The notes below the pieces were generated by a model, which saw only the letters and a program-made list of their open reading frames with translations, searched no databases and was not told where the DNA came from. Positions 37,061-38,035 of a stretch of DNA of 64,000 nt are shown here, in pieces (positions within the stretch are counted from its first letter, which is position 1; each line of letters starts with the position of its first letter). Source of the DNA: Escherichia coli (GTDB lineage: Bacteria > Pseudomonadota > Gammaproteobacteria > Enterobacterales > Enterobacteriaceae); NCBI RefSeq assembly GCF_003334355.1, contig NZ_QOWP01000002.1. The stretch is one strand, 5' to 3'. A program made the translations under genes and the position numbers.

Positions 37061-37887
37061 GCAATCCCCCTGTCTGCAAACTTCCCTTCCCGAACTCCCG
37101 TTAACGAGTCTTCCCTCAGCAGGTAATCAAAATCAGCCGTCCAGCCCGTGTCGTTGTCTCCGAAGTAAAACGGCTTGGCCTGATGCACAAACGCCCTGAC
37201 ATACGCTCTGAAACCGTCCACATTTGGCGTTTTCAGTTGCGGGATGATTTTCTTCAGGCGGCGTTTGCGTTTCTCGTTGACCGCAACAGCGTGTGGCAGT
37301 CTGTCACCGACTTCGGTGTTGTAGGCGTTCAGGAAGGATTCGTAGTCGATTCGTTCTGCCTTGCGACGTTCAGGTTTAACCTGCCCATCGCCGCCCCCGT
37401 TAGGGGGTAAGGGGGTATTTGTATTTATTGTCTTTTGTATATTGTCTTTTGTGTTTGACTGATTCGGTAAATTGCTTTTTACCGATTTGGTGAAGGTTTG
37501 TTTTACCGAATTAGTAAATGTTTTACCGAATCCGTTAACTTTCGTTTTCCACTCGGAAATGTTTGTATTCATACCAACTTGACGCCCCACCTGAATGAGA
37601 ACTCCCATTCTGATAAGCTCGTTTTTGGCGGTAGAGCATTTGGTTGGTGCCATGCCAGTGAGTTCAGCGAACTGTTCGTTTCCGATCCAATCTATTTTTT
37701 TGTTGTAACCGTATGTCTTGCGCCACACAGCCATAACAATCAGTAACTGATGTGCAGTAAGCCCAGAAAGCATGGCGGCTTCTAACAGTGTGTTTGCAGT
37801 CCGAGTGTAGCCATCTTCGAGTTCTGCCACGCGATGCTCCACGACCTCCAGTTGAGGCCTGTAATCAGCTAACTTAACGACGCCCAT
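37057..37887 (-). CDS. Replication initiator (lambda O / P22 gp18-like, 276 aa)
   Basis: N-terminal phage replication-protein-O-like domain; central repetitive peptide ([16 protein letters not shown]) encoded by DNA iterons; directly upstream of the helicase. Confidence 0.85.
37427..37531. repeat. Origin-like iteron array inside the initiator gene
   Basis: TTTACCGAAT-type 10-mers at 37462 (inverted), 37477, 37501 and 37521 at ~20-bp spacing; adjacent AT-rich ATTGTCTTTTGT x2 (37427-37452); G/C hairpin CCCCCgttaGGGGG at 37391-37415. Confidence 0.7.
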
Positions 37888-38035
37888 GTTTCACTCCTGC
37901 TTTGGCTAGTCTGTAAACACCAACAAGGCGCTCTGCGAACGCCCTGTTATTTGCTGCGGCTACCACTAATCCCTCAGGTGAATCAGGGTGTCGAATCTCT
38001 TCTTTTTCCTGGTATTTCTTACGACGTTTTGTCAT
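37872..38035 (-). CDS. Small basic hypothetical protein (54 aa) between cII-like and initiator genes
   Basis: Manual translation [53 protein letters not shown] with AGGAG RBS; stop overlaps the initiator start. Confidence 0.4.

What the first reader, a model, noticed from the sequence alone, without database searches (positions are those of the whole stretch)
37872..38035. Unannotated small basic ORF wedged between cII-like and the replication initiator
A 54-aa Lys/Arg-rich ORF with a good AGGAG RBS fills the 180-bp gap between cII and O-like genes, where lambda has no gene. It could be a small regulator or a spurious ORF.
Basis: seen in the sequence. Interest (0 to 1): 0.3.

Follow-up and report, generated by a model that had tools for sequence, protein, structure and literature searches.

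The report
Known small phage gene, function unknown
The small open reading frame is a real, conserved 53-residue protein gene that many lambda-like phages carry just ahead of their replication initiator; it is already annotated elsewhere as HK97 gene 53, and its function is still unknown.

Summary
The ORF is real. It lies on the minus strand at 37874..38035 and encodes 53 aa, with AGGAG 5 nt upstream. It fills the 180-bp gap between a cII-like gene and an O-like initiator. It is not spurious. Across 20 distinct homologues, dN/dS is 0.18 overall and 0.10 in codons 10-43, with synonymous sites saturated, in-frame indels only and length kept at 51-57 aa.

It is not new. It matches HK97 gp53, Sf6 gene 42 and ES18 gp58 (PHROG 1331; RefSeq WP_000166961.1 "hypothetical protein"). 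Hayes et al. 2012 already described this "orf" slot and noted that lambda lacks it.

The gene sits on a portable cassette: the ribosome-binding site, ATG and first codons that lambda uses for O, then gp53, then the first 9 codons of O. The antisense oop promoter overlaps its 5' end. The O gene's Shine-Dalgarno and ATG lie in its 3' end.

The same gp53 precedes four different O bodies and two helicase classes, never lambda P. P22 orf48, an unrelated peptide, fills the same slot in other phages. AlphaFold predicts a disordered basic tail plus one amphipathic helix, and no homologue has a known function.

Verdict: an ordinary, already catalogued gene with an open functional question.

The parts
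37874..38035 (-). Small ORF: 53 codons plus TAA. Member of the HK97 gp53 family (PHROG 1331).
   Evidence: E=1.4e-37, full length; dN/dS 0.18 overall and 0.10 for codons 10-43.
38041..38045 (-). Shine-Dalgarno AGGAG of the small ORF, 5 nt before the ATG.
   Evidence: An SD is present in all 20 relatives examined.
38028..38064 (-). Conserved 'boundary sequence' / translation initiation region (ACTGGATCAATCCACAGGAGTAATTATGACAAAAC). It is homologous to the region that starts gene O in lambda.
   Evidence: Alignments. Annotated as bsq5 in the Sf6 record. The 33-bp conserved region is described in PMC3349717.
37894..37898 (-). Shine-Dalgarno AGGAG of the O-like gene. It lies inside the small ORF (codons A46-G47-V48), 6 nt before the O ATG at 37887..37885.
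   Evidence: Sequence reading. The 14-nt stop/start overlap is the commonest arrangement in the relatives, with the overlap always retained (14-26 nt).
37057..37887 (-). O-like replication initiator. It is chimeric: codons 1-9 (MGVVKLADY) belong to the gp53 cassette, and residues 10-116 are 93.5% identical to P22 gp18.
38068..38364 (-). cII-like transcriptional activator, of the lambda/HK97 type.
38045..38125 (+). Predicted oop-like antisense RNA, about 80 nt. Its 5' end lies next to the small ORF's SD, and it overlaps the last ~57 nt of cII. The terminator hairpin is at 38092..38119, followed by a T-run.
   Evidence: Terminator scan. Homology to lambda oop. Fold of -30.2 kcal/mol, z=-4.2. P22 record annotation. 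PMC3349717.
38010..38038 (+). Predicted pO promoter of the antisense RNA: -35 TGGTAT (38010-15), extended -10 TGTCATAAT (38030-38). The -10 is the complement of the small ORF's ATG region, and the -35 lies in codons 7-9.
   Evidence: Inferred by position from lambda (TTGAGT-17-CATAAT) and from the promoter annotated in P22. Not detected by the generic scan.
37924..37946 (-). GC-rich hairpin inside the ORF (CAGGGCGUUC-GCA-GAGCGCCUUG; codons N30-V38).
   Evidence: 85.6% of cells paired against 78.6% in shuffles. Compensatory changes at 3 pairs. More stable than the mean of synonymous recodings in 18 of 20 sequences.
35684..37060 (-). DnaB-like replicative helicase of the same replication module.
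   Evidence: PHROG 19, E=1e-135.

Best explanation
SHOWN: this is a genuine protein-coding early gene, the HK97 gene-53 family small protein. It has 53 aa, a basic N-terminal tail predicted to be disordered, and one long amphipathic helix. It lies in the rightward early (pR-type) operon on a discrete mosaic cassette. The cassette consists of (i) the conserved ribosome-binding site, ATG and first few codons that lambda uses for gene O, (ii) the gp53 coding sequence, and (iii) the Shine-Dalgarno, ATG and first 9 codons of whichever O-like initiator follows. INFERRED from this anatomy: ribosomes load at the strong lambda-O-type initiation site, translate gp53, and terminate 14 nt inside the O-like gene just past its SD and ATG. 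gp53 and O would therefore be made together early after infection or induction (translational coupling). The 5' end of the gene doubles as the promoter of the antisense oop-like RNA. HYPOTHESIS (about 0.3): the peptide is an accessory factor for lambdoid replication modules that carry their own helicase. It would act through a host factor or nucleic acid rather than through the O body or the helicase, because both of those vary while gp53 stays identical. Its molecular target is unknown.
For: The coding frame shows purifying selection. dN/dS is 0.157 across 15 sequences, and 0.177 overall and 0.096 for codons 10-43 across 20 sequences, with pS 0.72. The other sense frames give 1.5-2.4. Third codon positions vary in 48 of 52 codons, against 24 and 20 for positions 1 and 2. 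Indels are in-frame and length stays at 51-57 aa. The ORF is a full-length match to PHROG 1331. The identical protein occurs on at least 1000 contigs, and tblastn finds the ORF in 97 phage records. Synteny is invariant: the ORF always overlaps the start of a Phage_rep_O gene. The cassette boundaries are mapped. The window's O is 93.5% P22 gp18-like although it is preceded by gp53 rather than orf48. Across about 100 loci gp53 sits before four O-body types, and the helicase is DnaB-like or ES18-type, never lambda P. In two extra examples, orf48 occurs with an ES18-type helicase, and the slot is empty where a 233-aa gene of lambda-P length follows O. AF2 predicts residues 1-19 disordered and a helix at 20-46. 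PMC3349717 describes the cII-oop-'orf'-O-P organisation.
Against: There is no direct evidence of translation (no Ribo-seq or proteomics was accessible). There is no functional annotation anywhere: Pfam, NCBIfam, PADLOC, PDB sequences and a 1.84-billion-protein profile search gave only small uncharacterised relatives. Lambda and other O+P phages replicate without the gene, and P22-type phages use an unrelated peptide, so any replication role is dispensable or replaceable. The association with helicase-encoding modules could reflect shared ancestry and recombination hot spots rather than function. mRNA folding does not show a consistent sequestration of the O SD/ATG that would enforce coupling. 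The AF2 model is of only moderate confidence (pLDDT 68).
Confidence: 0.7

Rival explanations
1. The gene is a moron-like, host-directed small protein (for example an inhibitor or modulator of a host protease, division protein, nuclease or defence system, or a lysis-lysogeny modulator). It would merely ride in the early operon, with a function unrelated to replication.
For: gp53 is an independent mosaic module. The identical peptide is combined with different cII types, four O bodies and two helicase classes, so its partner is probably something invariant, such as a host component. Small basic single-helix phage peptides often target host proteins (general knowledge). The upstream gene may even be YdaT rather than cII.
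Against: It is never found anywhere except fused by overlap to the start of an O-like gene, and in this sample only in modules with a phage-encoded helicase. There are no hits to PADLOC defence or counter-defence models. It shows no similarity to lambda CIII.
Confidence: 0.2
2. The ORF is a leader or coupling ORF. Only the act of translating it matters, by delivering ribosomes to, or unmasking, the O start, or by preventing premature termination or processing at the internal hairpin. The peptide itself has no function.
For: The stop overlaps the O start by 14 nt, and the O SD lies inside the ORF. A conserved GC hairpin followed by a U-rich tract lies inside the ORF. An unrelated peptide (orf48) occupies the same slot with the same overlap architecture and also contains a GC hairpin.
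Against: The amino-acid sequence is strongly conserved where no overlapping signal is known: dN/dS is 0.096 with synonymous sites saturated, and many invariant residues are encoded by 3-4 different codons. The O SD and ATG are not consistently base-paired in predicted folds. A coupling role may coexist with a peptide function.
Confidence: 0.07
3. The ORF is a spurious open frame. The conservation would come from overlapping nucleic-acid signals (the oop promoter, a hairpin, the O ribosome-binding site) or from recent common descent.
For: The 5' 30 nt overlap pO, and the 3' 25 nt overlap the O SD and start. Synonymous divergence is lower in both stretches (pS 0.58 and 0.53 against 0.72). Most database copies are nearly identical.
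Against: In the diverged copies (down to about 41-50% identity), substitutions concentrate at third codon positions of this frame only. The other frames carry 2-7 stops in nearly all homologues (one exception) and give dN/dS above 1.5. Indels are multiples of three.
Confidence: 0.02

Closest known systems
HK97 gene 53 protein family (Sf6 gene 42, ES18 gp58, epsilon34 gp49, ST104 orf27; PHROG 1331; RefSeq WP_000166961.1)
   Same: The protein sequence is 100% identical to HK97 Gp53. It has the same size, the same position between cII/oop and the O-like gene, and the same 14-nt overlap with O.
   Different: Nothing substantive. In this window the cassette is joined to a P22 gp18-type O body instead of the HK97, HK022 or ES18 types. 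The family has no assigned function.
P22 orf48 / HK022 orf48 / HK620 HkaW (Pfam DUF2740, PHROG 1913)
   Same: It is a small (48 aa) basic peptide gene in the same slot. It uses the same conserved ribosome-binding site and ATG and the same first ~11 codons (MTKxxxxYQ[DE]K), which overlap the oop promoter. Its stop overlaps the O-like start. It is found with DnaB-like or ES18-type helicase modules.
   Different: No detectable sequence relationship beyond the first ~11 codons: no BLASTP alignment, and hhalign probability 0.8%. The overlap with O is 8 nt rather than 14 nt. It is an analogue, not a homologue.
Start of lambda gene O with the oop/pO antisense unit
   Same: The ribosome-binding site, ATG and first 8-10 nt are homologous base for base. 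The cII 3' end, oop terminator and pO -10 are conserved in sequence and position.
   Different: In lambda this initiation site starts O itself. Here it starts a separate 53-aa protein, and O has its own SD and ATG 148 nt downstream. The downstream O-like protein is full length and collinear with lambda O, so gp53 is not a split-off O fragment.
Small single-helix phage early regulators such as lambda CIII (54 aa, FtsH inhibitor)
   Same: Similar size. A predicted amphipathic helix is the only structured element. It is expressed from an early operon (CIII properties are from general knowledge).
   Different: No sequence or profile similarity (hhalign probability 0.1%). It sits in a different operon and position. 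No evidence for the same target.

Membership tests
HK97 gp53 family (PHROG 1331) | Full-length sequence match to the family profile | tested here: met
   hmmscan E=1.4e-37, residues 1-53 against profile positions 1-53 of 53. 100% identical by tblastn to HK97, Sf6 and ST104.
HK97 gp53 family (PHROG 1331) | Position: immediately upstream of, and overlapping, a Phage_rep_O-type initiator and downstream of cII/oop | tested here: met
HK97 gp53 family (PHROG 1331) | Evolves as a protein-coding sequence | tested here: met
   dN/dS 0.10-0.18, third-position variation, in-frame indels.
HK97 gp53 family (PHROG 1331) | Protein is actually made | not testable with these tools
   No Ribo-seq or proteomic data were accessible, and literature searches found none.
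P22 orf48 / DUF2740 (PHROG 1913) | Sequence similarity to the family | tested here: not met
   No BLASTP alignment. No PHROG 1913 hit at E<=10. hhalign probability 0.8%.
P22 orf48 / DUF2740 (PHROG 1913) | Same genomic slot and initiation region | tested here: met
N-terminal fragment of a lambda-type O protein | Amino-acid homology to O beyond the first codons, with the downstream O lacking its N-terminus | tested here: not met
   Homology to lambda ends after about 3 codons. The downstream O-like protein aligns from residue 1 or 10 with HK97 and P22 O proteins and is full length.
Non-functional leader/coupling ORF | Stop/start overlap, with the downstream gene's SD inside the ORF | tested here: met
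   14-nt overlap. AGGAG at 37898..37894.
Non-functional leader/coupling ORF | Peptide sequence free to vary | tested here: not met
   dN/dS 0.096 in codons 10-43.
oop-type antisense RNA unit (associated element) | Promoter -10 complementary to the ATG region; an RNA of about 77-80 nt ending in a hairpin plus U-run inside the 3' end of cII; homology to lambda oop | tested here: met
   The equivalent feature is annotated in P22. Transcription itself was not tested. No Rfam model matched.
Known anti-phage defence or counter-defence proteins (PADLOC) | Match to a defence-system protein model | tested here: not met
   No hits at E<=1.

The most novel reading that the evidence does not exclude
gp53 and the unrelated orf48 peptide would be functional analogues required specifically by lambdoid replication modules that bring their own helicase. 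They might, for example, help load or license the phage helicase at ori, or neutralise a host replication factor, which is the role lambda P plays differently. In addition, the conserved hairpin embedded in gp53 would be a cis-acting RNA element (attenuator or processing site) that tunes expression of the initiator in response to translation of the small ORF.
Probability: 0.12. Interest if true: 0.55.

Novelty: already known. Interest (0 to 1): 0.2.

Why it matters
As a gene it adds nothing new. It has been annotated since the HK97 genome, and the slot has been described in the literature. Its modest value is as one of the most widespread uncharacterised early proteins of E. coli, Salmonella and Shigella prophages, Stx-converting phages included: the exact sequence occurs on at least 1000 contigs. 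It sits at a classic recombination junction and in the operon that controls replication. This analysis sharpens the question in three ways. The peptide is under strong selection. It is independent of the O body and of the helicase type. It is replaced by an unrelated peptide in P22-like phages and is absent from lambda-P-type modules. Those facts define simple swap and knockout experiments.

Tried and rejected
- **Sequence libraries.** Pfam, NCBIfam, PADLOC and PDB sequences with a family profile gave no hits. Rfam on 36500-40000 gave only sub-threshold chance hits.
- **Remote homologues.** A profile search of 1.84 billion representatives found only 24 clusters, all 29-84 aa. No multidomain relatives turned up to borrow a function from.
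- **Related loci.** The first related-loci run returned 80 near-identical loci, useless for dN/dS. I replaced them with diverged loci found through exact-protein look-ups.
- **Self-association.** An AF2 tandem gp53-linker-gp53 model scored pLDDT 43, which gives no support. I did not run a fold search, because a single helix is uninformative.
- **gp53-O or gp53-helicase co-folding.** I considered it and dropped it. The identical gp53 pairs with non-homologous O bodies and two helicase classes, which already argues against a specific contact.
- **Remote homology.** Comparisons to P22 orf48 and lambda CIII were negative.
- **Masking of the O start.** O SD/ATG masking by mRNA structure was not consistent across homologues.
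- **Literature.** Searches for a function (HK97 gp53, P22 orf48, the WP accession) found only descriptive mentions. The 'orf48' (gnarl1) of PMC12373910 is an unrelated numbering.

Full report
**1. Observation**

The window contains an ATG-to-TAA ORF at 37874..38035 on the minus strand. It encodes 53 residues: [53 protein letters not shown]. Lys+Arg make up 14 of the 53.

AGGAG lies 5 nt upstream of the ATG. The minus-strand context is CCACAGGAGTAATTATG.

Gene order on the minus strand is:
- a cro-like gene (38486..38716)
- a cII-like gene (38068..38364; PHROG 191)
- the small ORF
- an O-like initiator (37057..37887; PHROG 345)
- a DnaB-like helicase (35684..37060; PHROG 19)

The ORF's last 14 nt overlap the O start.

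**2. Is it a gene?**

The DNA and the protein are widespread.
- A 701-bp query around the ORF matches 385 phage records.
- tblastn finds the peptide in 97 phage records. They include HK97 (Gp53), Sf6 (gene 42), ST104 (orf27), ES18 (gp58), epsilon34 (gene 49) and several Stx-converting phages. Diverged copies occur in Cronobacter, Erwinia and Enterobacter phages.
- The exact protein occurs on at least 1000 contigs.
- RefSeq annotates it as WP_000166961.1, "hypothetical protein".

Most copies are nearly identical, so I collected diverged loci and tested the coding signature.
- With 15 distinct sequences, frame-0 dN/dS is 0.157 (pS 0.61, pN 0.17). The other two sense frames give 1.8-2.2. Variable sites by codon position are 24/20/48 of 52.
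- With 20 distinct sequences, dN/dS is 0.177 overall. It is 0.096 for codons 10-43, which overlap no known signal. Synonymous sites there are saturated (pS 0.72) and every third position varies.
- Invariant Gly, Val, Ala and Arg residues are encoded by three or four different codons.
- Indels are in-frame and length stays at 51-57 aa.
- The alternative frames carry several stops in nearly every homologue (the +2 frame of one, L086, is open).

This is the signature of a translated protein whose sequence matters. The 'spurious ORF' option is rejected.

**3. Anatomy of the locus**

*Shared initiation region.* Aligned with lambda, the 3' end of cII, the oop terminator region, the intergenic spacer, the ribosome-binding site, the ATG and the next 5-7 nt are homologous base for base:
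- lambda: ACAGGAGTCATTATGACAAA
- window: ACAGGAGTAATTATGACAAA

In lambda that ATG starts gene O. Here it starts the small ORF. Homology to lambda ends after about 3 codons.

*Cassette boundaries.* A five-way alignment of the window, HK97, P22, Sf6 and ES18 shows a discrete cassette. It runs from the conserved 'boundary sequence', through gp53, to the first 9 codons of O (MGVVKLADY). The Sf6 record annotates that boundary sequence as bsq5. The window, HK97, Sf6 and ES18 share the cassette almost identically, while both flanks differ:
- Upstream is a lambda-type cII (window, HK97) or a P22 c1-type gene (Sf6, ES18).
- Downstream the O bodies differ. The window's O, residues 10-116, is 93.5% identical to P22 gp18 and only about 50% identical to HK97 gp54.

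*Overlapping signals.* The O gene's own AGGAG (37898..37894) and ATG (37887) lie inside the last codons of gp53. This explains the conserved C-terminus KAGVKxGRR and the lower synonymous divergence there.

On the opposite strand, the complement of the gp53 ATG region is CATAAT preceded by TGn (38030-38038). This corresponds by position to the lambda and P22 pO -10. The -35 position (38010-38015, TGGTAT) falls in codons 7-9. A terminator hairpin with a T-run lies at 38092-38119 inside the 3' end of cII. The predicted ~80-nt RNA folds well (-30.2 kcal/mol, z=-4.2). This is the oop antisense unit, annotated likewise in P22 and described in PMC3349717.

**4. Comparative context**

In every diverged locus the ORF overlaps the start of a Phage_rep_O gene. 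The upstream gene may be Phage_CII, a P22 c1-type gene, an unknown gene or even YdaT.

Across about 100 loci, gp53 precedes four O-body types:
- HK022-type, about 50 loci
- HK97-type, about 36
- P22/window-type, 7
- ES18-type, 5

The next gene is a DnaB-like helicase or an ES18-type Toprim primase-helicase. It is never lambda P.

P22, HK022, HK620 and many others carry a different 48-aa peptide in the same slot: orf48, Pfam DUF2740, found in 127 phage records.
- It uses the same initiation region and also overlaps the O start.
- It can likewise precede an ES18-type helicase.
- A phage with a lambda-P-sized gene after O has no small ORF, like lambda itself.

gp53 and orf48 show no detectable homology: no BLASTP alignment, and hhalign probability 0.8%. 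The exception is the first ~11 codons (MTKxxxxYQ[D/E]K), which coincide with the initiation region and the pO -10/-35.

Hayes et al. [quoted passage not shown] They state that lambda 'is naturally missing' the ORF and name both the orf48 and HK97 gp53 types. They assign no function.

**5. What the protein looks like**

No library places the protein in a family of known function: Pfam, NCBIfam, PADLOC and PDB sequences gave no match, and its PHROG family (1331) is of unknown function. A profile search of 1.84 billion representative proteins finds only 24 clusters, all 29-84 aa and all from Enterobacteriaceae-type contexts.

AlphaFold2 with the family alignment predicts residues 1-19 disordered (a basic then acidic stretch) and one long helix at 20-46, at moderate confidence (pLDDT 68). 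A tandem construct gave no support for self-association (pLDDT 43). There is no similarity to lambda CIII.

**6. Most likely mechanism**

*Shown.* This is a conserved, selected coding gene on a portable cassette. The cassette supplies the initiation region upstream and the SD and ATG of O downstream.

*Inferred.* It is expressed early from the rightward operon and translationally coupled to the initiator. Its 5' end is dual-use with the oop promoter.

*Hypothesis, about 0.3.* The peptide is an accessory of replication modules that encode their own helicase. The identical peptide works with non-homologous O bodies and two helicase classes, so its partner is more likely a host factor or nucleic acid than O or the helicase.

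*Rivals.*
- A host-directed 'moron'-type function unrelated to replication (about 0.2).
- A pure coupling or leader role. This is disfavoured by the low dN/dS but could coexist with a peptide function.
- A spurious ORF, which is rejected.

**7. Side observation: a hairpin inside the ORF**

A GC-rich hairpin lies inside the ORF at 37924-37946, spanning codons N30-V38 (NRAFAERLV).
- It is the only consensus structure RNAalifold finds in the ORF, and 3 of its 7 pairs show compensatory changes.
- 85.6% of cells are paired, against 78.6±1.7% in shuffles (0 of 500 reach the observed value). With slid partners the figure is 33-49%.
- It is more stable than the mean of synonymous recodings in 18 of 20 sequences, with p<=0.02 in 8.
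- P22 and HK022 orf48 also contain a GC hairpin at a similar distance upstream of the O start.

Given how related the sequences are, this is suggestive only. It could be a by-product of the near-palindromic codons, or a cis element that affects O expression.

**8. Verdict**

'Spurious' is refuted and 'regulator' is untested. The novelty claim fails, because this is HK97 gene 53, a long-annotated and widespread gene of unknown function in a slot already described in the literature. Interest is low. The residual interest is the unanswered function and the pattern of two unrelated peptides alternating in front of helicase-encoding replication modules.

Noticed in passing
window 38045-38125 (+), promoter 38010-38038 (+): An oop-like antisense RNA unit is present. 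Its terminator hairpin (38092-38119) plus T-run lies inside the 3' end of cII, and the -10 (TGTCATAAT) is the complement of the small ORF's start region. It is homologous to lambda oop and folds well (z=-4.2). An equivalent hairpin is conserved upstream of gp53 in all relatives, even where the upstream gene is YdaT.
   Followed up: partly
window 37924-37946 (-): A GC-rich hairpin sits inside the gp53 coding sequence (codons N30-V38). It shows compensatory changes and is more stable than synonymous recoding predicts. P22 and HK022 orf48 carry a different GC hairpin at a similar distance from the O start. It may be a cis-acting RNA/DNA element or a by-product of palindromic codons.
   Followed up: partly
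window 37811-37887 (-): The O-like gene is chimeric. Codons 1-9 come with the gp53 cassette. A stretch of about 45 nt (including CTGGAGGTCGTGGAGCATCGCGTGGCAGA, 37823-37851) is shared by HK97 and P22. Beyond it the sequence follows P22 gene 18 (93.5% aa identity). This looks like a recombination junction inside the initiator gene.
   Followed up: partly
window 38003-38015 (- strand codons 8-11, TACCAGGAAAAA): The Gln codon CAG and the surrounding CCAGGA are almost invariant at the DNA level in most of both the gp53 and orf48 families, although synonymous sites elsewhere are saturated. The stretch coincides with the predicted pO -35 and upstream region, and contains a CCAGG (Dcm) site.
   Followed up: partly
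window 37477-37548: Three to four direct repeats beginning TTTTACCGA, spaced 20-24 bp apart, lie inside the O-like gene. They are probably the origin iterons of this P22-type replication module.
   Followed up: partly
window 39746-40279 (+): A 177-aa HNH endonuclease gene (PHROG 99, E=5e-66) sits immediately beside the CI-type repressor gene in the immunity region. It may be a homing-endonuclease-like insertion.
   Followed up: no
L100:750-896 (P22 orf48); PHROG 1913: P22 orf48 and its PHROG family are labelled 'tail protein' in RefSeq and PHROGs. Yet the gene is a 48-aa early-operon ORF (DUF2740) between c1/oop and gene 18. This is almost certainly a propagated misannotation.
   Followed up: no
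window 39692-39733 (+): A strong small hairpin lies between the repressor gene and the HNH gene. It gave a sub-threshold Rfam hit (mir-7927, 28 bits, against a gathering threshold of 75). It is probably just a terminator-like stem-loop.
   Followed up: no
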